Positions 3,001-59,063 of a stretch of DNA of 64,000 nt are shown piece after piece. Made by a program: the position numbers and the translations under genes. The notes beneath the pieces were generated by a model that saw nothing but the letters and a program-made list of their open reading frames with translations, did no database searches and was not told the DNA's origin. Within the stretch, counting starts at the first letter, position 1; every line of letters begins with the position of its first letter. The stretch is taken from contig JBCCHT010000006.1 in NCBI GenBank assembly GCA_039028615.1, positions 192,001-256,000 of the forward strand, read 5' to 3'. The DNA comes from Myxococcota bacterium. GTDB lineage: Bacteria; Myxococcota_A; Polyangia; Nannocystales; Nannocystaceae.

Positions 3001-5216
3001 GGCAGGGCCTCAACTTCCGCGTGGACGACAGCCGTCGCCTGCTCGCCGAGCAGCTCGGCCGCAGCCATGTCGCGGGTGACGGCAGCGGAGCCGGAAGCCA
3101 CAGCGTGGTCTCCACCCGCAAGAACTTCGTCAAGACCGCCCTGTGGAAGCCGCAGCTGCGGACCGACGCGGACGGCCGGGCCCACGCTCGCTTCACCTTG
3201 CCCGACAACCTCACCCGCTTCCGCATGATGGCGGTGGTGGTCGACACCGAGGGTCGCGGTGGCGTCGACGAGGACGACTTCGAGGTCCAAAAGCCCCTCA
3301 TGGCCATCCCCGCCGTGCCGCGCTTCGCCCTCATCGGCGACAAGTTCGAGGCCGCCGTGCTGGTGCACAACAACCAGGAGACGACCCAGACCGCGGCGGT
3401 GTCCGAGGGCGGGATGACCAAGACCGTCGAGATCGCCGCGGGCGGCCGGGCGCGCGTGCCCTTCGAGCTGTCCTTCTCCAAGGGCGGCACGAAGCTCCTG
3501 CACTTCACCGTCGCCGACGCCGAGGGCACGGTCCGCGACGCCGTCCAGGTGAAGGTGCCCGTCCAGGCCCCCGGCATCGACGAGCGCCCCAATCTGCACG
3601 GCACCTTCCTCGGGAGCCAGGAGGTCACCCTCCGGGTCCCCGAGAAGGTCTTCGCCGACGCGACCGGGGACGACTTCGTCACCGTCACCATGGGCGAGAA
3701 CCTGTGGCCGGAGCTGGGCACTCGCCTGCAGTACCTGCTCGGCTACCCCCACGGCTGCGTCGAGCAGACCACCTCGAGCACGCTGCCGCTGCTGGCCGCG
3801 CGCGAGATTCTGCCGCGCCTGGGCATGACCCCCTACGACGACGACGAGCTGCGCAAGATGATCGAAGCGGGCGTCGTGCGACTGTCCACCATGCGGACCA
3901 GCGCGGGCGGCCTCGCCTACTGGCCGGGCGGACACGAGCCCAACCCCTTCGGCACCGCCTACGCCACCCTGGCCATCGCCCGCGCCCAGGAGCTGGGCAT
4001 CGAGGCCCCCGAGGGCATGGTCGACGGCATGCGCGACTACATGCTGAGCATGCTCGAGAGCGACTCGTTGCCCCATGGCTACGGGGTCGAGGTCCGTGCC
4101 TCCTTGGCGCTGGCGCTCGCCGAGCTCGAGGCCCTGCCGCCCGAGCGCGCCGACTCGCTGTGGGACACCGTGCCCGCGCAAGGAGCCTTCGGCGTCGGCA
4201 CCCTGGCCCTCGCCCTGTCGACGCTGCCCGGACAAGAGGACCGCGTCGAGAGCCTGCTCGACCAGCTCGAGGCCTCGTTCGGTGACGACGGGACCCTCCG
4301 CTCCGAGCGCAAGGACGACGACTTCCTCTACTTCGGTTCCGATCGTCGCACCACGGCGCAGGCCTTGATCGCCTTGCACCGCCTGCGCCCGCAGTCGCGG
4401 GTCGTGCCCCACCTCGTGGGCAACCTCGTCCGCATGACGCCGGGCTACACCACCCAGAGCACCGCGTACTCGCTGCTCGCCCTGGCCGAGAAGATCCAGG
4501 ACGAGGACGGCACCGCGTCTCGTCAGCGGGCCCTGCTCGACGGCGAGGTGCTCACCCCCGAGGTCTCGGGCGCCATGGCGCTGGGCCCCAACATCCGTCG
4601 CTATCGGATCCCGCTGTCGAAGCTGCGCGGGCGCTCGATGACCCTGACCCTGCAGAGCGAGTCCACCCGTGCCCAGGCCTTCATGGTCTCGGCCCGCTGG
4701 CGCCGAGCCGGCGCGGGTACGGAGACGCTCGCCGAGACCACCAGCGAGCACGGCCCCGACCTGTACCGCGTGTACACCGATGCCAAGGGGCGCTCCATCG
4801 ACCCCACCGCCATCGAGCCGGGACAGGTCCTGCGGGTGGTGTTGCTCGCCCGCATGCCGCGGGACCTGCCGAGTGAGCGACGCGGCTACCTGGCCCTGAC
4901 CGATCGGATCCCCGCCGGATTCGAAGCCATGCAACCCGACCTGTGGACGGTGGCCACCGTGCCCGAGCTCGACGACTCGCACCCGCTGTACGACCACCTG
5001 CGGTGGCGCGGAGGCTCAGCGGACCACCTCGAGCTGCGGGACGACCGAGCCCACTTCTACTTCGACCGTGTCTGGGGACAGTGGGCGCATGCCACCTACC
5101 TCATCCGCGCGACCACGCCGGGCATCTTCGCCACGCCGCCGGCCATGGCGGAGCTGATGTACGAGCCGGACAGCGCTGGCTACACCGACGCTCGCAACTT
5201 CACCGTCGTCCAGTAA
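3..5216 (+). CDS. Bacterial alpha-2-macroglobulin family protein (5'-truncated by window)
   Basis: 1737-aa ORF with thioester motif GYPHGCVEQ, MG-domain motifs (SDRGVYRPG, LPDNLTRFRMMAV) and C-terminal AELMYEP; followed by PBP1C. Confidence 0.95.
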   Translation: MFTAEPRVHIAGKVISYLPEAGAPQMVTVRPHEGPQVGPAVAPEVLFDQPVTLAQAKTQLEGEVDGKPCEITLAHPEKDLFDGAAVDREHVVIARPAKALDAGSSLVLRVSEPDGSDDVEFAYEVAEPLAFEKIECEEDYWRDDTCTWKDQVLSTQGERVKVRFNNPIGTSDKALGRKLKVSPRVDELRIQRDPWASDGTVWISGRFKPSTTYRVELGRVKDRFGSRSAAPLKFEVDVAPMASSVSMPEGQQVLDEAASRTFAITTRNVKEARLDLWEVEPNARAWTEARQRVSARERPISAPDLSIPVRPRSRRDKPVTTRLDLLDSLAPGKTYLARLELGHAAFGAPPPAYPEWAMAARPSTALITPHDDRALAVHVHEGTDKTLIQVARLGDGSPVRGAQVLVDGTRQPGIKTNADGVAVLKRPLDADTARRVHVVEVESDDRRAVLALGVGSLDERELAPELAGTPAPLEDIRALLFSDRGVYRPGATVELKGIVQFRKKGRLHPAPAMPVGMRIHSPTGKEVFAEASVTSTMGSTVDSFSVPANAEIGRYRVELVAPLRANAVIARYGIQVAEFEPPRFTVDVETKAAESGKKLEGTVNGRYLFGAVMEDAPVTWTLRRSPAAMPKGPLPSKGFVFRPVRSYWEDDDTEAWVRVGEGQLDARGLLAVTPAVELPADQGPQRFVLEAEVTDESHRAIASRSSVVMHPSERYAGIKLAERWLDVGTAIPMEAGVVDQSGATVSGVPVELRLEHLEWKRVRKPGPGGAASQRWHQVSEEVARCTTKGADTSACSLVPKRSGTYRVSAWLDGRRGGSMRVWAWGRGSTTAAPSPGRRLEIIADRSGYEPGDTAELMVRNPFPAATAILTVEQGGILHHETRQVTESAVRFDVKLGNEHAPHAHATVTLLPRDAKDDARVDWKIGAVRLPVDLSDNRLDVTIASDQDRYAPGDSVDIVIDVSQSGTAIEGAEVALAVVDEGVLRMTNFHAPDPVSALYPGQGLNFRVDDSRRLLAEQLGRSHVAGDGSGAGSHSVVSTRKNFVKTALWKPQLRTDADGRAHARFTLPDNLTRFRMMAVVVDTEGRGGVDEDDFEVQKPLMAIPAVPRFALIGDKFEAAVLVHNNQETTQTAAVSEGGMTKTVEIAAGGRARVPFELSFSKGGTKLLHFTVADAEGTVRDAVQVKVPVQAPGIDERPNLHGTFLGSQEVTLRVPEKVFADATGDDFVTVTMGENLWPELGTRLQYLLGYPHGCVEQTTSSTLPLLAAREILPRLGMTPYDDDELRKMIEAGVVRLSTMRTSAGGLAYWPGGHEPNPFGTAYATLAIARAQELGIEAPEGMVDGMRDYMLSMLESDSLPHGYGVEVRASLALALAELEALPPERADSLWDTVPAQGAFGVGTLALALSTLPGQEDRVESLLDQLEASFGDDGTLRSERKDDDFLYFGSDRRTTAQALIALHRLRPQSRVVPHLVGNLVRMTPGYTTQSTAYSLLALAEKIQDEDGTASRQRALLDGEVLTPEVSGAMALGPNIRRYRIPLSKLRGRSMTLTLQSESTRAQAFMVSARWRRAGAGTETLAETTSEHGPDLYRVYTDAKGRSIDPTAIEPGQVLRVVLLARMPRDLPSERRGYLALTDRIPAGFEAMQPDLWTVATVPELDDSHPLYDHLRWRGGSADHLELRDDRAHFYFDRVWGQWAHATYLIRATTPGIFATPPAMAELMYEPDSAGYTDARNFTVVQ

Positions 5217-11900: not shown

Positions 11901-14168
11901 TCAGCTGACGAAGTTGCGGTTCGGGGTCCACAGGACCTGGGCCGGAGCGGCCGCGGGCGCAGCTGCGGCCTGGCCACTGCTGACCCGAGTCTCGAGCACC
12001 GCCTTGGCCGCGACCAGCACCTTGGCGGGCGACACGACGATCTGGTCCTCGAGCACGACGCTCTGGGGCACGCCCGGCACCGCGTCCTGACCCAGCACGC
12101 GCGTGGCCACGTGACGCTCACCGAAGTGCTCGTGCACCGACCCCTGGAGCTCCCGGCCGATGCTCGAGAACACGCGGTCCTCGTGCACGACCAGCAACCG
12201 GCCAGTCCGGCCGACGCTCTCGTAGATGGTCTCGAGGTCGGGCGGCACGATGGTCCGCAGGTCGATGAGGTCGACGGAGACGCCGTCGGCGGCGAGGGTC
12301 TTGACCGCCTCCTGGCAGAACAAGGTGCAGCGACCCCAGGTCACGATGGTGAGATCGTCGCCGCGCTGCAGGTGCGCCGCCTTGCCCAGCGGGACGCGGA
12401 AGTCCTCGGGCAGCGGGGGCGCATGACCCTCGAAGGCGATGGCGCGCTTGAGCTTGCGGACCTCTTCGGGATCGGTGGGCTCGCCTGGGAACGCGTCGCC
12501 GAGCGTCATGCGGTACAGGCCCTTCGACTCGAAGAAGAGCACGGGTCCGCTGTACTCGGCCGCCGTTCGCAAAAGGCCGTACATGTCGCGCGAGGTCGAG
12601 GGCGCCACGATGGTCAGGCCCGGGATCGCCCCGTAAAAGCCCTCCATGCACATCGAGTGGTACACGGCGCCGCCGTGCAGCGGCTCGACGGGCAGGCGCA
12701 CGATGACGTTGGCCCGCACGCTCGAGTCCGAGGTCCACAGCAGGTTCCCCATGTGCACCAGCCAGTGCAGGGTATTGAGGCTGTAGTCCGAGAACTGGAT
12801 CTCCGGCAGCGCGGTCGAGCCCTCGTGCAGGGCGAAGCCCAGCGCCGCGCCCAGGATGAAGGGCTCGTTGATCGGTGCGTCGCGGACCTGGTTGGGGAAC
12901 GACTCGTGCAGACCCTTGGTGGCCTGCATGACGCCGCCCTTGGCCCCCACGTCCTGGCCGTAGATCCAGGTCATGGGGTTGTCGCGCAGGATGGCCCCCA
13001 TGGCCGCCCGCACCGCGCCGTTGATCGAGATGATGGTGCGGCGACCGGTGGCCGGCGCCTCCTCGACCTCGGGGAAGGGATCGCGAATGTTGTCGTAGAT
13101 CCGGTCGTAGCTGGGGTGCGGCTCCGACTCGGCCTGCTCCATCGTGTGCACGATGTGGGCGTCGGCGTGGGCTCCGAGGCGGCCGAGCTCGTGGCGGGCG
13201 TAGTAGTCCTTGGACTCGCCGTCCTTGCGCCGAATGATGTCGTCCGGCGCCAGGATCCCGCGATCGACCAGGGCCTGACCGAAGTCGATGAGCGGGTCGT
13301 ACTCGTGGAACTTGAAGGTGACGTCGGCGGCCGAGCTGTGGTCATTGAGCCGCGAGAGGTTGCGAACCCACATCAGGGCCGGCTTCTGCTCGTTGCGGCA
13401 GTACAGCGCGGCGTCGCGGGTGGTCTCGTAGACGTCGAGGAAGTCGTTGCCGTCGCAGGTGAAGTACTTGAAGCCGAACGCCTTGGCGTAGGACTCGAAG
13501 TCTCGGATCCCGCGGCCGTCCTCGGGCTTGACGCTGATGGCGACGTTGTTGTCGGTGACGGTCAGCAGCCAGGGCAGCTGGAGGATGGACGCCCCGGTCA
13601 TGCCCTCGTGGACATCGCCCTCGGCGCAGGTTCCGTCACCGATGATGCACTGGCACAGCGCGTCGGTATGGCCCTTGTGCACCAAGCCCTGCGTGTAGCC
13701 GATGGACTTGGAGACCTGCATGCCCAGCGCCGACTGGATCGGCAGGGTGTTGTGGGCCAGGTCGTTGAAGTGGGCCGTCATCTGGCGGCCGCCGCTCCAC
13801 GGGTCGGTGGCGCGGGACAGCTGCTGCCGCATGTGGTTGAGGTGGAAGTCCTCGTGCCCCTGCAGCCGGCTCCACAGCGCGAGCAATGAAGCGGAACGGT
13901 AGTGACCGGCGATGGCGAAGGCCTCGGGGTTGGCGACCTCGTGCAGCGCCAGCGCGGTCGCGGTGCCGTGGATCTCCTCGCCTGGGCCCCAGATGGCGAA
14001 CTTCACCTTGCCCTTGAGGCACTCCTGCACCACGCGCTCCACATGGAGGCGCGCCAAACACGCTTCGTGGTACGCGAGCTGCAATCGCTCGGTGGTCAGC
14101 TCCGGAAATTCATCCAGGCGAGCCAGGTCATACTTGAGCGTCCGAACCGGCGAGGATCCTTCGGGCAT
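11901..14168 (-). CDS. 2-oxoacid dehydrogenase E1, fused alpha/beta subunits
   Basis: TPP-binding GDG...DNN; beta-type motifs GQDVG, DAPINE, EIQFSDY, DLRTIVP; strong SD (TAAGGAG). Confidence 0.9.
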   Translation of the reverse strand: MPEGSSPVRTLKYDLARLDEFPELTTERLQLAYHEACLARLHVERVVQECLKGKVKFAIWGPGEEIHGTATALALHEVANPEAFAIAGHYRSASLLALWSRLQGHEDFHLNHMRQQLSRATDPWSGGRQMTAHFNDLAHNTLPIQSALGMQVSKSIGYTQGLVHKGHTDALCQCIIGDGTCAEGDVHEGMTGASILQLPWLLTVTDNNVAISVKPEDGRGIRDFESYAKAFGFKYFTCDGNDFLDVYETTRDAALYCRNEQKPALMWVRNLSRLNDHSSAADVTFKFHEYDPLIDFGQALVDRGILAPDDIIRRKDGESKDYYARHELGRLGAHADAHIVHTMEQAESEPHPSYDRIYDNIRDPFPEVEEAPATGRRTIISINGAVRAAMGAILRDNPMTWIYGQDVGAKGGVMQATKGLHESFPNQVRDAPINEPFILGAALGFALHEGSTALPEIQFSDYSLNTLHWLVHMGNLLWTSDSSVRANVIVRLPVEPLHGGAVYHSMCMEGFYGAIPGLTIVAPSTSRDMYGLLRTAAEYSGPVLFFESKGLYRMTLGDAFPGEPTDPEEVRKLKRAIAFEGHAPPLPEDFRVPLGKAAHLQRGDDLTIVTWGRCTLFCQEAVKTLAADGVSVDLIDLRTIVPPDLETIYESVGRTGRLLVVHEDRVFSSIGRELQGSVHEHFGERHVATRVLGQDAVPGVPQSVVLEDQIVVSPAKVLVAAKAVLETRVSSGQAAAAPAAAPAQVLWTPNRNFVS

Positions 14169-14260
14169 GGCGACGGTTGCTCCTTATGGGTCGACCGCCG
14201 ACCCCCACGGTCGCCGTCGACTCGCGCCGAGCCTATTCGATCAAACCGTGCCTCTCAACG

Positions 14261-14290
14261 ACCACGGGGGCCTGCAAGGGCCCCCGCGGT
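14261..14290 (-). terminator. GC-rich hairpin downstream of FHA gene
   Basis: ACCACGGGGGCC/GGCCCCCGCGGT inverted repeat; weak U-tract. Confidence 0.4.
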
Positions 14291-14336
14291 GTGTGCTTAC
14301 GCTTCGATTTTCGTTGAGGAATTTCGCTTGGCCTTT

Positions 14337-16679
14337 TTATTGACCGTACGGGTTGTAGCCCCCCGGTCCGGGCGGTTGGCCCGGCTGCGGCGGATACCCC
14401 GGCTGCGGCTGTCCCGGCTGCGGCGGGTACCCCGGTTGGGGCTGTCCCGGCTGCGGCGGGTACCCCGGTTGGGGCTGCGCCATCCCCGGCTGCGGCTGTC
14501 CCGGCTGCGGCGGGTAGCCGCCCGGCTGCGGCATTCCCGGCTGACCCGGGGGCGGAGCCATCCCCGGCTGCGGCTGACCCGGCTGCGGCGGGTAGCCACC
14601 CGGCTGCGGCATTCCCGGCTGACCCGGGGGCGGAGCCATCCCCGGCTGAGGCATCCCCGGCTGACCCGGAGGCGGTGCCATGCCCGGCTGAGGCATTCCC
14701 GGCTGCCCGGGAGGCATCCCCGGCTGACCCGGAGGCATCCCCGGCTGCCCCGGTGCGGGAGCCATGCCCGGCTGCGGCTGACCCGGCTGACCCGGGTATC
14801 CACCCGGCGCCGGCTGACCCGGGGCGTGAGCCATGCCCGGCTGCGGCTGTCCGGGCTGACCCGGCTGCTGGCCGAACTGGCCCGCGTTGGCGGGAACACC
14901 CGGGATGTCCGGGGCCCCCGCAGCCATCGCCTCGAGGGCTTGCTTGGCGGCGGGACGGGGATCGGCCCCCTCCATCTGCTCGCGAACCTCGAAGTAGATC
15001 CGCAGGGTCATCGCGGCAAAGATCGGCGTGATCGCAGCGGTCACCACGTTGGTGACCAAGGAGCTGAGGGCCCCCGCCACTCCGGCCATGTACTCGCCGA
15101 TTCCAGCGAGCAGCCCGAAGATCACACCGACGATGGCGATCGCCACACCGGCCGTGACGAACAGGATCAGCGCGCCGATGATGGTCCGGCCGATGACCGG
15201 CTTCCACAGCTCGAGGCTGCGCATATTGAGGTCGATGAACTTCTTGTCCGTCTCGAACAACCAGATCGCGCCGACGAAGAAGCCGAGCGGGAAGAAGGTG
15301 AACGGACCGACGAGGCCGCCGATGATGCTGGCGACGATGAAGCTGACGATGCTCATGCCGCCGCGCCCCAGCACCGCCTTATAGGCGTCGATGAAGCTGA
15401 CCGGCGTGCCGAAGTGCGCCTGCGCGATGAAGTAGAACACCGCCGGGAAGGTGATGATCCCGGCCAGGTTCAGCAGACCACCGATGATCACGCCGACCGC
15501 GGGAATGGTGACCAGCGCGAACAGCAGCATGATCAAGCCCGCGAGGATCAGCGGGGCACCCACGACCAACACGGACTGGATCAGGTTGGCCATCACCAGC
15601 GAGATGCCGGCCTTGATGTCGTCCATGAACCCGCCGCTGCTGGTCTCGGCCGCCGCGAAGGCTTGGTTCATGCCCTGACCGACTTGCTGCATGCCCTGGT
15701 TGAACTGCTGCCCGGCTTGACCGAACTGTCCTTGGGGCGGCTGCCCGGGCTGGCCCGGCATCCCCGGCTGGCCCGGCGGCTGCCCGGGAGCACCCATGCC
15801 CGGCGGTTGGCCTGGAGCACCCGGCATCCCGGGTTGACCCGGCGGCTGCCCGGGAGCACCCATGCCTGGCGGTTGACCCGGTGCGCCCGGCATCCCCGGT
15901 TGACCCGGCGGCTGCCCGGGAGCGGCCATGCCCGGCGGTTGACCCGGTGCACCGGGCATCCCCGGTTGACCCGGCATCCCTGGCTGTCCGGGGGGCTGAC
16001 CCGGTGCGCCCATCCCAGGCGCGGGAGGTTGGCCGGGCATGCCCGGCTGTCCGGGAGGCTGACCCGGTGCGCCCATGCCCGGCGGTTGCCCCATGGCACC
16101 CGGCGGCTGACCTGGCATGCCCGGCTGCCCCGGGGGTTGCCCCGGTGCGCCCATGCCCGGCGGTTGCGCGGGGGCGCCGGGCGGCTGGCCCGGTGCGCCG
16201 AGGGTGCCGGCGGAAGGAGGATAGCCCGGACGGGGCCCGGCCGACATCGGCGGGTTCACGCCGGGGATCGGCGGCGGAGGTCCTCCACCCGGCGCGGCGC
16301 CGGGCGCTGCTCCGGCAGCCGGCGGCGCGCCACCGGGCGCGAACATGGTGCGGCTCGCCGGCTGTGCGGCGGCCCCCGGAAAGTCGATGTGCTGGACGGT
16401 GATCGTCGACTGACCCAGTCGCACCGCGTTGCCGATCCCCATCTCGACGGGACCGGTGATTCGCTCACCGCTGGGAAGAAACGATCCGTTCGTCGAACCG
16501 AGATCTTGAAAGACGAGCTTGCCGTTAGTGAATCGAAGCTCGGCGTGCCGACCGGACACTTGAGCATCCATGAGGGCGATGTCACCGACATCGCGGCCGA
16601 TGACGATCGACTCCTTGTCGAACGGCTTAGTTTCCGGGGGACGTCCCGAGTACTGGACGTACAGGGTGTATAGCGCCAT
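14337..16679 (-). CDS. FHA-domain membrane protein with Pro/Gly/Gln-rich repeats
   Basis: FHA motifs [18 protein letters not shown]; central multi-TM block; long PGQPGM and PQPGYP repeats; AGGAG SD. Confidence 0.9.
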
Positions 16680-54042: not shown

Positions 54043-56640
54043 TCAGCCGACGATGGCCCGCAACCGGAGTAAGGGCTCGTCGACCGCATCGGGCTCGCGC
54101 AGGTCGACCTCCGCCTGCACGCGCCACGGCGAGGGCCCTTGGGGGCCCACCAGCGTGTGCTCGACCGACCACCGTCGCTCGCCCGCCGACTCGATCTTGG
54201 TCAGCGCAGGGGCCCGGGCCTCGGCCCCGAAATGCAGCGTTCCTTCTTCCTCGAACACCGGTTCCAGCGCTTTTTCGAGGCGCTCCACCGTCCACGCGTC
54301 GTCGGGATCGACGGCCAGACCGACCAGCGCTTCTTCGTGGTCGCCCATCGCCATCGCCTTGGCCACCGCGTGCAGCTCGGCGCGAACGCGGGCCGTCAAC
54401 GCCTTTTTGTCCTTGGCCAGGTCGTAGGGCTCGGGCTCGGCCTCTTCTTCCACCTCGGCGTCCGACTCGCCGGGCTCCGGGCCGCCCTTCAAGATCCGCT
54501 CCCACTCGCTGACCAGGCTCGAGTCCACCCGCGCGAGCATGGCCCGCAAGAACGCGATCACGTCCTCGACCTCTTGGTTGTGATAACTGACGGGGACGTT
54601 CTGCAGCAGGGTCTTGTAGGTCTGGCTCAGGTAGCGCAGCAGCACGCCTTCGATACGGCCGAGCCCGTACTCCTTGACGTACTCGTTGAAGCTGGCGAAG
54701 CGCTCCTGCATGTCGCGGGCGACCGACTTGGGGGCGACGTTCTCGCCCCGTACCCACGGGTGCCCGGTCCGAAACTCGTCGAAGGTCCGATAGATGAGGT
54801 CGGCCAGCGGCTTGGGGTAGTCCGCCTTCTCGAGCTCGGTCATGCGGTCTTCGTACTCGACGCCTTCTTGCTTGAGGCGCGCCACGAGCTCGCCCTTGAC
54901 GTAGTCGAGCTGGCGCATGAGCACCGCCCGCGGGTTCTCGAGGATCGACTCGACCAGGCTGAGCACGTCGAGCCCGAAGCCCTCCGACTCGGCGTCGAGC
55001 TGCGCCAGCGCCTCGAGCAGGTACAGCGACAGCGTGTGGTGGAGCGAGAAGTCGCGCTGCAGGCCCGGGCTCACCCGCACGCAGCGTCGCGGCCAGCCCT
55101 CGGGGCGCTCGACCTCGATGATCTCGGCCTCCCGCAGGTGTCGAAACAGCATCGCCGCCTGTCGACGATGCCGCTTGCGGGCCCCCGAGCGCTCGTAGGA
55201 CCGCCCGATGATCTCGATGATCGTCTTGTACCCGCCGTGGGGCTGATCGACGTTGAACTCGCGATCGAGCACCGTCATCAGCATGCCGTGCGTGACCGAG
55301 AACCGGGACTCGAGCGCCTCCGGGTCGGACTCGATCAGCTTTTGGAAGGTGTGCTCGTCCCAGGGCACGTAGCCGCGCTCGGGCGGCTTCTTTCGCACGA
55401 AGCGCTTCTTGTTGCCCTTGCCCGCCGCCGCCTTGGCCTCGAGCTTCTTGTTCTCGATGACGTGCTCGGGCGCCTGAGCCAGCACCCAGCCGTGATCGTC
55501 GAAGCCCTTGCGACCGGCTCGACCCGCGATCTGCTTGAAGTCCCGCACCGCCAAGATGCGCACCTTCTCGCCGTCGAACTTGCACAGCTTGGTGAACAGC
55601 ACGGAGCGAATGGGCACGTTGACGCCCACGCCGAGCGTGTCGGTGCCCGAGATGATCTTGAGCAATCCCTGCTGCGACAGGCGCTCGACCAAGGTGCGGT
55701 ACTTGGGCAGCAGGCCCGCGTGGTGCAGGCCGATCCCGTGGTGGAGGAAGCGCTTGATGTCCTTGCCGTAGTGGGTATCGAAGCGAAAGTTGCCGATCAC
55801 CTTGGCGATCGCCCGCTTCTCTTCCTTGGTGCACAGGTTCACGCTGGTGAGGTTCTGCGCCTGCTCGGCCGCCTCGCGCTGGGTGAAGTTCACCACGTAC
55901 ACGGGGGCTCGACCGGCTGCGGCCAAGTCCCCGATGGTCTCGTGGAGCGGCGTCTCGCGGTACTCGAACTCGAGCGGCACCGGGCGCTGGCGCGAGCGCA
56001 CCACCGTGACCGGCTTGCCCGTGAACGCCTCGATCTGCCGTTCGAACTCCCCGACGTTGCCCAGCGTCGCCGACATCAACAAGAAGGTCGCGTGAGGCAT
56101 GGTCAATAGCGGCAGCTGCCACGCCATGCCCCGATCTGCGTCGCTGTAGTAGTGGAACTCATCCATCACCACGATGTCGGTCGAGGTGTACGCCCCGTCG
56201 CGGAGGGCCTGGTTCGCCAAAATCTCGGCGGTGCAGCACTGCACGGGCGCGCGCGGGTTGATCGACGCGTCACCCGTCATCATTCCGACGTTTTGCGCCC
56301 CGAGCTGTCGGCACAAGTCGAAGAACTTCTCGCTCACCAGCGCCTTGATGGGGCTGGTGTAGGCGCTGCGCTTGCCTTGGCACAGCGCCTTGAAGTGCAG
56401 CGCCAGGGCGACCATCGACTTGCCCGACCCGGTCGGAGTGGCGAGCACCAAGTGCTGCCCGCCCATGAGCTCCAAGATCGCCTCTTCCTGGGCGTCATAA
56501 AGGTCGATCCCCCGCTGGCCTACCCACTCGAGGAAGCGCTCGAGGATTTCGTCTCCGTCGAGCGTGCCTTCGGTCGGGAGGTACTGCTCGAGGGTGGCTG
56601 CGTCAGCGGAGGGCGGCACAGGGGGCTGAGCGTATCTCAC
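54043..56640 (-). CDS. Ski2/HelY-like DExH RNA helicase (DUF3516-type)
   Basis: [48 protein letters not shown]. Confidence 0.93.
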
Positions 56641-56709
56641 AACCCCGCGACGTCGTCATCCGCGAGCCCCCCCGGACTCGCGGAAGCACCACGGAATTGA
56701 CGTTGCCTT

Positions 56710-56964
56710 CGAAAAGGGACTGGGCCCGTCTCGGGGGAGAGACGAGCCCAGGTGGGGATTGAGCCTCGCGTCGGGGGAGATACGAGGTCTCTTCGGGGAT
56801 GGCCTCCGAACTCGGGGGAGAGGGAGGAGGCCGGGGTCGAACTCGGGAACCGGGGAGAACCCGAGTCGGACGAAGTGGGGAAGACTTGGGGTCGGGCGGC
56901 TCACGCGCCCCGGAGGGGAACCGGGGGCGGGGGAAGTAGGGGAAGGCGGAGCCTGCCCGACCCC
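56710..56964 (-). ncRNA. Candidate structured RNA: tandem hairpins with UCCCC loops ending in a terminator-like stem
   Basis: Stems at 56720-56751, 56761-56791, 56801-56832, 56841-56866, 56888-56964; loops GGGGGA/GGGGA on + strand; AAAA at 56712-56715. Confidence 0.6.
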
Positions 56965-56970
56965 GGCGGA

Positions 56971-57849
56971 CTACTCGAGGTCGTACTGCTTGAGCTTGCG
57001 GTACAGAGTGGTCTTGCCGATGTGCAGCAGTCGAGCGGCCTTGCGCTTGTTGCCGCGGGCGTAGCTCAGCGCGCGACGGATGGCTTGCTTCTCGGCCTCT
57101 TCGAGGCAGAGCTGACGCTCGGGCGACTCGGCGCGAGTCTGGTGCACGTCGCGAACGCGAAGCTTGGCCGGAAGGTCGCGAAGCTCGATCTGCTCCGACG
57201 CACCGGCTGCGATGGCGTGGACCATGACCTCTTCGAGCTCGTCGACGTTGCCGGGCCAGGGGTAGCTGCGCAGGCAGTCGAGGGCGTTGTCGGCGATGCC
57301 ACCGATGGGGCGTCGGGTGGGCGTGCGCCGGATGATGTCCATGGCCAGCAGCTCGAGGTCTTCGATGCGCTCGGCCAAGGTCGGCACGTCGATGCGAACT
57401 CCGCTGGCCCAGCGAACGATCTGCGGGTGAAGGCGGTTGCGGCCTTCCTCGCTCTCGGGGCGAAGCTGAGTGCCGATGACGATGCGGCCGAGGCCGGTCA
57501 GCGCGGGAAGGCGAGCTTGCTCTTCGAGGGGGAGGTCTTCGAGATCGCCGAGGTAGGTGAACCCACCGAGACCAACGAGGCGCGACTGCTGGTCGCAGGC
57601 GCGGATGACCTCGAGCGCGGGGGACTCACCTCCACTAAAGTGGTGAAGGACCCGGGCGATGGTCTCTCGACCGGTGCCCGTGGCTCCGACCAACAAAACA
57701 GGGAGGTTGCTCCGAACGGCGCGATGCACCAACGCCTGCACACGGCGAGACGCAGGCGCGTGGCCTACGAACACCGGAGGCGGAGTACGAATCCGCGCCT
57801 CGGCAATGTTGTCGGAGAACGATGGGGAGAAATGATCGGCGATTTGCAT
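56971..57849 (-). CDS. Degenerate sigma54-activator-like (AAA+/Fis-HTH) regulator
   Basis: VLLVGATGTGRE, YPWPGNVDELE, GNKRKAARLLHIGKTTLYRKL; no GAFTGA, no receiver domain. Confidence 0.88.
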   Translation of the reverse strand: MQIADHFSPSFSDNIAEARIRTPPPVFVGHAPASRRVQALVHRAVRSNLPVLLVGATGTGRETIARVLHHFSGGESPALEVIRACDQQSRLVGLGGFTYLGDLEDLPLEEQARLPALTGLGRIVIGTQLRPESEEGRNRLHPQIVRWASGVRIDVPTLAERIEDLELLAMDIIRRTPTRRPIGGIADNALDCLRSYPWPGNVDELEEVMVHAIAAGASEQIELRDLPAKLRVRDVHQTRAESPERQLCLEEAEKQAIRRALSYARGNKRKAARLLHIGKTTLYRKLKQYDLE

Positions 57850-57887
57850 CGGGGGCTTCCGCTCTCGCGAGGGGTTTCCTGCAACCG

Positions 57888-57902
57888 GCATGCGAGATGC
57901 CA
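57888..57902 (-). promoter_or_regulatory. Putative sigma54 (-24/-12) promoter TGGCATCTCGCATGC
   Basis: GG-N10-GC spacing, about 40 bp upstream of ATG 57849. Confidence 0.6.
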
Positions 57903-58214
57903 CTAGGAACGCCGAAGATCCGTATTTTCAACGATTTGCCGGCGATGCGCGACTTTGTCTAGTGTCAAAGTAGTGTTTACCCTTAGTAAAACCGTCATGA
58001 TGATGGCGGCTTGGGCCACCAACGACCACCCAAGGCCCAATGTCGGACAAAAAATCGTCAGGGGTTTGGCACCCGAGTTCCCGTTCGAGCCACGGGACTC
58101 TGACGGTCCGCTTTCGGATCGAGATCGTCCCGCATTGAGATCCCGACCACGCGGCTGGCGCCGGCACGGATCGATCGCTTGCGCCAGGAGCAGGGACCCG
58201 GCAAAAGGTGCGTC

Positions 58215-59063
58215 ATGTCGAAGGCCGACGAAGCCGAGCTGAGCACTTTGCGCACCCGCGTCAATGCCGCGTGGGAAGACCGAGCCTTGCTCGAGGACGA
58301 CGATCACCGAGCCGCTGTGCGACGGACGATCGCCCTGCTCGACGCCGGCTCGATCCGGGTCGCGTCCCCTCCCGCCGAAGACGGTGGCGACTGGGCGGTG
58401 CACATCTGGATCAAGCAGGCGATCGTTCTCTACTTCATTACTCAGAAGCTGCGGACCGATAACGTCGGCCCCTTCGAGTACTACGACAAGATCCCGCTGG
58501 GACGAGACTGGGCGCAAGCCGGCGTCCGCGTGGTGCCTCCCGCGACGGCGCGGTATGGCGCGTTCATCGAGTCGGGCTGCGTGCTCATGCCCAGCTACGT
58601 CAACGTCGGTGCCTATATTGGTACGGGCACGATGGTCGACACCTGGGCCACGGTGGGCAGCTGCGCCCAGATCGGTCGCAACGTGCACCTGTCGGGCGGC
58701 GTGGGCATCGGTGGTGTGCTCGAGCCCCCCGGAGCCACCCCGGTCATCATCGAGGACGGCTGTTTCGTGGGCTCCCGCGCCATCGTGGTCGAGGGCGTCC
58801 GCCTCGAGCGTGAGGTGGTCCTCGGCGCCAACGTCGTCATCACCGCGTCCACGCCCATCATCGACGTCACTGGCGAGGAGCCGGTGACGTACAAGGGCCG
58901 AGTGCCCGCGCGAAGCGTGGTCATCCCGGGCACCCGACCCAAGAAGTTCCCCGCGGGGGAGTACCAGGTTGCCTGCGCCCTCATCATCGGACGACGCAAA
59001 GAGAGCACCGATCAGCGCACCAGCCTCAACGATGCGCTGCGGACCTTCGACGTCCAGGTGTAG
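58215..59063 (+). CDS. dapD: Tetrahydrodipicolinate N-succinyltransferase
   Basis: YYDKIP, RVVPPATARYGAFI, MVDTWATVGSCAQIGRNVHLSGGVGIGGVLEP. Confidence 0.97.
   Translation: MSKADEAELSTLRTRVNAAWEDRALLEDDDHRAAVRRTIALLDAGSIRVASPPAEDGGDWAVHIWIKQAIVLYFITQKLRTDNVGPFEYYDKIPLGRDWAQAGVRVVPPATARYGAFIESGCVLMPSYVNVGAYIGTGTMVDTWATVGSCAQIGRNVHLSGGVGIGGVLEPPGATPVIIEDGCFVGSRAIVVEGVRLEREVVLGANVVITASTPIIDVTGEEPVTYKGRVPARSVVIPGTRPKKFPAGEYQVACALIIGRRKESTDQRTSLNDALRTFDVQV

What the first reader, a model, noticed from the sequence alone, without database searches (positions are those of the whole stretch)
56710..56964. Candidate sRNA: tandem hairpins with different stems but the same loop
Seen: five hairpins whose stems differ in sequence while the loops repeat (GGGGGA at 56733, 56773, 56814; GGGGA at 56852, 56915), with further GGGGA in the linkers, about ten in 250 nt. 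This pattern suggests selection for displaying the motif. On the minus strand the loops read UCCCC(C), the element starts 6 nt after the regulator stop, and the last stem gains a G-U pair and is followed by UCCCUUUU, favouring a 3'-UTR-derived RNA. Established (from memory, not aligned): C-rich loops act as anti-SD seeds, and the Myxococcus Pxr sRNA has a C-rich loop and lies downstream of a sigma54 activator gene. Alternative: a plus-strand CsrB-like multi-GGA sponge. Either way a multivalent regulatory RNA, next to an RNA helicase gene.
Basis: partly seen in the sequence, partly recalled or inferred. Interest (0 to 1): 0.82.

Follow-up and report, generated by a model that had tools for sequence, protein, structure and literature searches.

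The report
C-rich multi-hairpin RNA in marine myxobacteria
The tail of a regulator gene's message in a marine myxobacterium folds into five hairpins that display the same short C-rich word ten times, probably to grab G-rich spots on other RNAs, and relatives carry anywhere from none to about twenty copies of that word.

Summary
Ten UCCCC motifs lie in 210 nt, the densest such cluster in the 12.3-Mb genome. The element is single-copy, and the C-runs are predicted unpaired in five hairpin loops and their linkers. It reads on the minus strand, as the 3' UTR and terminator of a degenerate sigma54-activator-like gene (no receiver domain, no GAFTGA) of Nannocystaceae. The terminal hairpin is paired in 60 of 60 cells across five relatives, with three compensatory pairs, while a C-rich loop is kept. 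A sister species has the same five-hairpin order with mostly rewritten stems. Motif number varies from 0 to 20 among 10 close orthologues, partly by recent tandem duplication; 3 of the 10 have no real array. It is not Pxr, cuckoo/ar14 or 6C by Rfam. Best reading (0.5): a chaperone-independent C-loop pairing RNA of the 6C/LhrC kind with unusually high, variable valency. The CsrB alternative is poorly supported although csrA exists. Rho was not found in 51 family genomes. Expression, processing and targets are not shown.

The parts
56971..57849 (-). Host gene: degenerate sigma54-activator-like protein, 292 aa (AAA+ remnant and lid, Fis-type HTH; no receiver domain, no GAFTGA loop)
   Evidence: Pfam AAA_lid_14, Sigma54_activ_2, HTH_8; below every NCBIfam cut-off; GAFTGA-like motif in 0 of 59 orthologues; 23% identity to an intact activator of the same genome over the AAA+ region
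56888..56964 (-). Hairpin 1: composite stem with a C-rich internal loop (two motifs) and an apical UUCCCCU loop
   Evidence: outer stem kept in L002 with a 23-nt identical stretch and C-G to U-G changes
56868..56887 (-). Single-stranded linker with UUCCCC
56839..56867 (-). Hairpin 2, loop (U)CCCC
56801..56832 (-). Hairpin 3, loop UCCCCC
   Evidence: stem partly rewritten, C-loop kept in L002
56791..56800 (-). Linker with AUCCCC
   Evidence: same linker in L002 and L022
56761..56790 (-). Hairpin 4, loop UCCCCC
   Evidence: covered by a related contig in run X2
56752..56760 (-). Linker with AUCCCC
   Evidence: a C-run before the last stem in 5 of 5 aligned loci
56720..56751 (-). Hairpin 5: terminal, terminator-like stem, loop UCCCCC
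   Evidence: 12 pairs, 60 of 60 cells paired, 3 pairs changed on both sides, 3 pairs with U-G variants; paired double change at 56721 and 56750 in X2
56712..56719 (-). Pyrimidine tail UCCCUUUU, probable 3' end
   Evidence: inferred, not mapped
54043..56640 (-). Downstream DEAD/DEAH helicase with DUF3516; syntenic neighbour, not part of the element
   Evidence: follows the regulator with or without an array; own promoter-like motif in relatives

Best explanation
A structured RNA in the 3' UTR of the degenerate activator's mRNA, ending in that gene's intrinsic terminator. Strong stems hold UCCCC(C) words unpaired so that they can pair, without Hfq or ProQ, with G-rich single strands (GGGGA, GGGAG) near ribosome-binding sites of other mRNAs and block or tune their translation, as 6C and LhrC RNAs do. 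It would act as part of the mRNA or as a nuclease-released 3' fragment. Valency changes by tandem duplication of hairpin-plus-linker units. Shown: sequence, fold prediction, covariation of the last stem, location, variable motif number. Inferred: transcription through the array, release as an sRNA, pairing, targets.
For: Densest motif cluster in the genome; top of 131 C-rich candidates folded out of 3896 3' gaps. C-runs unpaired in all ten motifs. U precedes 10 of 13 C-runs against 24% in intergenic DNA (copies not independent). Terminal stem covaries (6 of 500 shuffles reach it, slid controls lower). Its UCCCCC loop is identical in L022 and L023 at 81-82% protein identity. L002 keeps hairpin order and C-loops with mostly rewritten stems. 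X2 keeps 56684-56808 with 9 differences and 1 gap in 125 nt while both flanks are replaced. Different stems carry the motif in L001, L002, L019 and L005. Hfq and ProQ not found, RNase E/G present. Precedent: 6C binds G-rich RBS through C-loops without chaperones (PMC6486639); LhrC uses UCCC in two loops and a linker (PMC4132741); Hfq-less M. xanthus has sRNAs that pair near SD sequences (10.1101/2025.09.11.675593). Weak hint of transcription: a 214-nt RNA-library contig spans the stop codon and hairpin 1.
Against: No stranded expression data; the RNA contig may be DNA, and X4 and X5 look like one data set. Patchy: L004 and L006 have no array, L020 one motif, and L005/L020 have a changed terminal loop. 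The seeds prefer start regions only 1.5-fold (328 vs 216 of 2026) against 3-fold for a canonical anti-SD word (209 vs 69). No coherent target set among 45 GGGGA-RBS genes. An automated strand tally over 36 hairpin calls gave 14 G-U against 24 A-C, i.e. against the sense strand; several of those calls are spurious diagonals, and only the terminal hairpins favour sense (7 G-U, 2 A-C in 8 loci). Only 5 sequences, chosen for likeness, enter the covariation count. Ten to twenty identical seeds exceed the 2-4 loops of the families I read about.
Confidence: 0.5

Rival explanations
1. Multivalent protein decoy: the RNA titrates a C-tract-binding protein, CsrB-style in architecture but with a UCCCC site and an unknown protein.
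For: The same word in loops and linkers, five successive motifs 20-21 nt apart, up to 20 copies: an architecture typical of sponge RNAs (recalled). Poor fit to the genome's SD. Two KhpA/B-type KH proteins are encoded.
Against: No protein with this specificity is identified. Rho, the obvious C-binder (recalled), was found in 0 of 51 family genomes. C-loops in the bacterial RNAs I read about pair with RNA (PMC6486639, PMC4132741).
Confidence: 0.2
2. A terminator hairpin with a C-rich leader that has been duplicated repeatedly; the array only stabilises or insulates the mRNA end, or is nearly neutral, and persists because there is no Rho to punish C-rich RNA.
For: Fresh tandem repeats in L019 (63 nt x 3.2 and 47 nt x 4.3). 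Hairpins 3-5 resemble each other. Array missing in close relatives. C-runs precede terminator stems genome-wide (15 vs 3 G-runs among 198). Low-complexity C tracts occur elsewhere in these genomes.
Against: Stems diverge while loops stay fixed. No tandem repeat is detectable in the window copy, yet three loops read UCUCCCCCGA exactly. C-loops are not a general terminator feature (35 CCCC vs 29 GGGG among 713 loops).
Confidence: 0.2
3. Plus-strand CsrB-like sponge displaying GGA for CsrA.
For: csrA is in the genome and in 63 of 73 family genomes. 18 GGA on the plus strand. Some L019 modules pair slightly better on that strand.
Against: Only 2 of 18 GGA are in ANGGA context and none in CANGGANG (consensus recalled). 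No plus-strand sigma70 promoter or terminator at the element. csrA is followed by fliW, a protein partner (title of PMC13407953). csrA is family-wide but the array is not, and csrA was not found in G004 (88% complete), which has the array.
Confidence: 0.05
4. Cis autoregulation: the C-loops fold back on, or pair between copies with, the host gene's own G-rich ribosome-binding site.
For: AGGAGGG precedes the start in L002, L003, L019, L022 and L023, all with C-loops.
Against: The window's own copy has no such site. UCCCCC mismatches GGAGGG. L006 has AGGAGG and no array.
Confidence: 0.05

Closest known systems
6C RNA (Rfam RF01066; Actinomycetota)
   Same: Stem-loops with C-run loops in a high-GC, chaperone-poor host; binds G-rich RBS (PMC6486639, passages). 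Best Rfam resemblance of the terminal hairpin (22.5 bits).
   Different: Far below the 47-bit cut-off (E 5.9); five hairpins and ten motifs rather than two loops; abuts a coding gene; restricted to one genus-level clade.
Cuckoo / ar14 / CcsR RNAs (RF02344; Alphaproteobacteria)
   Same: [quoted passage not shown] L002 hits ar14 at 22.1 bits.
   Different: Loop is UCCCC(C), not CCUCCUCCC (the one such word in the window copy is mostly in a stem); cut-off 58.8 not approached; more than 4 modules; no Hfq.
LhrC (Listeria), RsaE and RNAIII (Staphylococcus)
   Same: Redundant UCCC motifs in loops, linker and terminator loop; Hfq-independent pairing (PMC4132741, PMC2790875, passages).
   Different: No Rfam hit to these families; three sites in LhrC against 10-20; low-GC Bacillota.
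Pxr (RF01812; Cystobacterineae)
   Same: Myxobacterial; lies downstream of a sigma54-activator-family gene.
   Different: Own sigma54 promoter in a 260-bp spacer, response regulator with a cognate kinase, three stem-loops (PMC5684412); none of these here, and no Rfam hit.
CsrB/RsmZ-type sponges
   Same: Many copies of one word in loops and linkers; variable number (recalled).
   Different: Word and strand do not fit; no Rfam hit.

Membership tests
Pxr | Match to RF01812 | tested here: not met
   No hit at E <= 10 in 55500-58500. Genome-wide searches (0 of 5 and 0 of 141) had no positive control and are inconclusive.
Pxr | Downstream of an NtrC-like response regulator (PxrR) with a spacer that holds a sigma54 promoter | tested here: not met
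   No receiver domain, no GAFTGA; stem begins 6 nt after the stop.
Cuckoo/ar14 | 2-4 adjacent hairpins with variable stems | tested here: inconclusive
   Same style, but five hairpins here and at least 8 C-loops in L019.
Cuckoo/ar14 | Loop motif CCUCCUCCC in each hairpin | tested here: not met
   Loops are UCCCC(C); CCUCCUCCC occurs once in L001 and once in L068 among 9 loci.
Cuckoo/ar14 | Rfam RF02344 score above 58.8 bits | tested here: not met
   No hit in the window; 22.1 bits in L002.
6C RNA | Rfam RF01066 score above 47 bits | tested here: not met
   22.5 bits, E 5.9.
6C RNA | Loops with six or more C (definition recalled) | tested here: not met
   C-runs are 4 or 5 long, 13 of 13 in the window copy.
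UCCC-motif pairing sRNAs (functional class) | Unpaired UCCC in conserved loops or linkers | tested here: met
UCCC-motif pairing sRNAs (functional class) | Discrete stable transcript | not testable with these tools
   Only assembled contigs were available.
UCCC-motif pairing sRNAs (functional class) | Pairs with G-rich ribosome-binding regions of targets | tested here: inconclusive
   1.5-fold preference for start regions; 45 of 2028 starts carry GGGGA.
CsrB/RsmZ | Repeated ANGGA in loops | tested here: not met
   2 of 18 GGA in ANGGA context, 0 CANGGANG.
CsrB/RsmZ | csrA in the genome | tested here: met
   followed by fliW.
Dispersed repeat (REP-like) | Many copies in the genome | tested here: not met
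   BLASTN single copy. Model R1 gave strong hits only at the orthologous locus in G000 and G004, both training loci, plus 2 marginal hits (32-33 bits, not examined) among 73 genomes.

The most novel reading that the evidence does not exclude
An 'accordion' regulatory RNA: a 3' UTR whose number of C-loop binding sites expands and contracts between species (0 to 20 copies), working as a tunable multivalent sponge for G-rich mRNA leaders or an unknown C-binding protein. It would be the output arm of a degenerate sigma54-activator gene, and loss of Rho in Nannocystaceae would have permitted it.
Probability: 0.2. Interest if true: 0.8.

Novelty: new variant of a known kind. Interest (0 to 1): 0.5.

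Why it matters
My searches found no paper on sRNAs of Nannocystaceae, and the myxobacterial sRNAs they returned are from Myxococcus and kin. If real, this gives the group a candidate riboregulator. It extends C-loop, chaperone-free pairing to a lineage in which Hfq, ProQ and Rho were not found. It also offers a natural series of valencies (0, 1, 3, 6, 10, 20 UCCCC-type motifs) on one orthologous gene, with which to test whether more seeds mean stronger or broader regulation and where a pairing RNA becomes a sponge.

Tried and rejected
Rfam scans of the window region and of 6 related loci: nothing at a gathering score. Dispersed repeat: rejected. Genome-wide class of C-loop terminators on regulator genes: not supported (35 vs 29 loops; upstream genes mixed by my reading). 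Rho utilisation site: rejected because Rho was found in 0 of 51 family genomes, against 34 of 53 other class members. A motif scan of the six frames found no Rho; its AtpD control rang and its NusG control did not. Leader or attenuator of the helicase: rejected; relatives have a conserved promoter-like motif after the array. Internal promoter in the regulator's last 120 nt: none seen by eye or by the sigma70 scan. A CsrB-like RNA elsewhere in the genome: no convincing cluster among the top 8 of 406. 16S 3' tail: not found in the assembly. Pxr genome searches had no positive control. The automated G-U/A-C tally was mixed. In one search the L005 row was given in the wrong orientation and is ignored. 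The tree is the quick version; the careful search did not finish. Earlier-findings look-ups returned nothing. Gene calls for genome-wide counts are from my own simple caller, so starts are approximate. One notebook entry says 43 distinct loci and a 56-nt repeat; the correct figures are 59 and 63 nt.

Full report
Observation. Against a genome mean of 0.29 per 260 nt per strand, ten in 210 nt is the top of 12 clusters with six or more in the 12.27-Mb assembly, and BLASTN finds no second copy. Read on the minus strand they are UCCCC(C). The fold has z = -7.5 against -3.0 for the plus strand (partly compositional). The first three C of all ten motifs are at least 91% unpaired. With my own gene calls, it ranks first among 131 C-rich candidates folded out of 3896 gaps behind stop codons, with 5 C-loops and 9 unpaired motifs against at most 3 and 3 elsewhere in the rows shown.

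Setting. Titled relatives place the genome in Nannocystaceae; the closest record with a species name is titled Paraliomyxa miuraensis (85% identity in the regulator). The upstream gene (57849-56971, minus) encodes a 292-aa sigma54-activator-like protein with AAA+ lid and Fis-type HTH but no receiver domain. It falls below all NCBIfam cut-offs, and a GAFTGA-like loop is present in 0 of 59 orthologues. It matched in 16 of 24 family genomes and 0 of 16 other class genomes at E <= 1e-40. The first stem opens 6 nt after its stop codon. The last hairpin plus UCCCUUUU is the one minus-strand terminator-like site in 56500-58250. So the array most simply lies in this gene's 3' UTR. The downstream DUF3516 helicase follows the regulator in many relatives without an array and has a promoter-like TTGCGC-N17/18-TACG motif after the array in relatives (read by eye), so it is not the element's client.

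Relatives. I examined 76 regulator loci, dropped 16 duplicates and one without a stop codon, and kept 59. In the quick tree, ten rows form the window's clade (SH-aLRT 99). Seven of these ten have two or more unpaired UC3+ motifs behind the stop (L001 10, L019 17, L002 5, L003 3 before its contig ends, L005, L022 and L023 2 each). Three of the 49 rows outside do (L068, L057, L010). L004 and L006 have none and L020 one paired motif. Kin are not independent, so this is description, not a test. The terminal hairpin aligned across five loci chosen for likeness is paired in 60 of 60 cells, with three pairs changed on both sides and three with U-G variants; 6 of 500 shuffles reach this and slid controls are lower. 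Its loop is UCCCCC in L001, L022 and L023, UCCCC in L019 and UCCUCCCA in L002. L002 (90% protein identity) keeps the order of five hairpins and both AUCCCC linkers while most stems are rewritten. A contig from an independent study (X2) keeps 56684-56808 with 9 differences and one gap, including a paired double change at 56721/56750, while both flanks are replaced; one listed change (56769) has no listed partner, and 193 rows were not shown. L019 has 20 UCCCC in 610 nt, built by recent tandem duplications of 63 and 47 nt. The window copy shows no tandem repeat, but hairpins 3-5 align better than shuffles (1, 1 and 5 of 500; the shared loop contributes). A covariance model of the last hairpin hit strongly only its two training loci among 73 family genomes.

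Strand. Terminal hairpins favour the sense strand (7 G-U against 2 A-C in 8 loci). An automated tally over all 36 hairpin calls went the other way (14 against 24), with several spurious calls and some L019 modules that pair better on the other strand. The sense reading therefore rests on the terminator position and the terminal stem. The only expression hint is a 214-nt contig, identical in two RNA libraries that are probably one data set, over 56891-57097 with 3 differences and 2 gaps; strand is unknown and DNA is not excluded.

Mechanism. Hfq and ProQ were not found and RNase E/G is present (genome 96.7% complete). C-loops that pair with G-rich ribosome-binding sites without chaperones are documented for 6C RNA (PMC6486639, passages), LhrC (PMC4132741, passages) and RsaE/RNAIII (PMC2790875, passages). 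Hfq-less M. xanthus has sRNAs that pair near SD sequences (10.1101/2025.09.11.675593, passages; supplements not seen). I take this as the likeliest function (0.5). The fit is imperfect: SD sites here are AGGAG/GGAGG, GGGGA is in 45 of 2028 confident start regions, and the seeds prefer start regions 1.5-fold against 3-fold for a true anti-SD word. That would suit a selective subset of targets, as for 6C, but no target is shown. Ten to twenty copies also suit a protein decoy (0.2); KhpA/B-type proteins exist but no binder is identified. Rho is excluded as the partner: 0 of 51 family genomes against 34 of 53 other class members. A duplicated terminator with little function beyond stability remains possible (0.2), given the patchy distribution and a genome-wide C bias before terminator stems (15 vs 3); fixed loops on changing stems argue against it. 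A plus-strand CsrB (0.05) is weak: csrA is present, but beside fliW, and in 63 of 73 family genomes regardless of the array; only 2 of 18 GGA are ANGGA.

Comparison. No Rfam family reaches its cut-off. It works most like 6C, LhrC or cuckoo RNAs (PMC4615179, first of six parts read) but fails each membership test. It is not Pxr: Pxr has its own sigma54 promoter 260 bp behind a response regulator and is described from Cystobacterineae (PMC5684412 part 1 of 4; PMC5568312 parts 1-2 of 6 and passages; PMC11928866 passages). The claim that Pxr's loop is C-rich could not be checked. Searches returned no paper on this RNA or on sRNAs of Nannocystaceae; the library lacks most subscription papers.

Verdict. 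A real, selected, lineage-restricted RNA structure; a new variant of the C-loop regulatory RNA kind, notable for high and evolving valency. Interest 0.5, held down by lack of expression and target data and by loss in close relatives.

Noticed in passing
G000 and 50 other Nannocystaceae genomes: Termination factor Rho was not found in any of 51 family genomes at least 85% complete, but was in 34 of 53 other class members. One literature search (listing only) showed no paper on this loss.
   Followed up: partly
G000:C44 about 12890-14990, locus L018: csrA followed by fliW, directly behind an intact sigma54 activator gene; csrA is in 63 of 73 family genomes. Flagellar genes were not checked.
   Followed up: partly
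window 56971-57849 minus: Family-restricted sigma54-activator remnant without receiver domain or GAFTGA loop but with an almost invariant C-terminal HTH in 59 orthologues: probably a repressor or sigma54-independent regulator (function inferred).
   Followed up: partly
window about 57880-57896 minus, and L002-L006, L019, L020, L022, L023: In the ten-row clade the regulator's upstream region shares GCAYG-N4/5-TGCA, like a sigma54 promoter without the -25 G or a TGCA-N7-TGCA operator; many other family members have a TTGC-N17-CAATAG sigma70-like motif instead (read by eye). A promoter swap coincides with the clade that has the arrays.
   Followed up: no
window 56915-56942 plus: A canonical four-tract G-quadruplex motif on the template strand; similar motifs in L002 and L019, none in six other loci.
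   Followed up: no
L068 (stop at 3371) downstream 110 nt: Outside the clade, a regulator 3' region with CCUCCUCCC and AUCCUCCCCA loops and a U7 tail: a closer anti-SD fit, perhaps convergent.
   Followed up: partly
G000:C4:220621-220730 plus; C59:20008-20080 plus; C25:34487-34560 plus; C18 near 105393 minus: Other 3' ends with a C-rich linker and C-loop terminator; two tandem C-loop hairpins at C4; the C25 gene looks like an ECF sigma factor by my reading.
   Followed up: partly
G000:C55 minus and C29 minus: Genes with GGGGA at the ribosome-binding site include proteins that read like ribosomal L2, L22 and a type IV pilin (names from my reading of the sequence, no scan).
   Followed up: no
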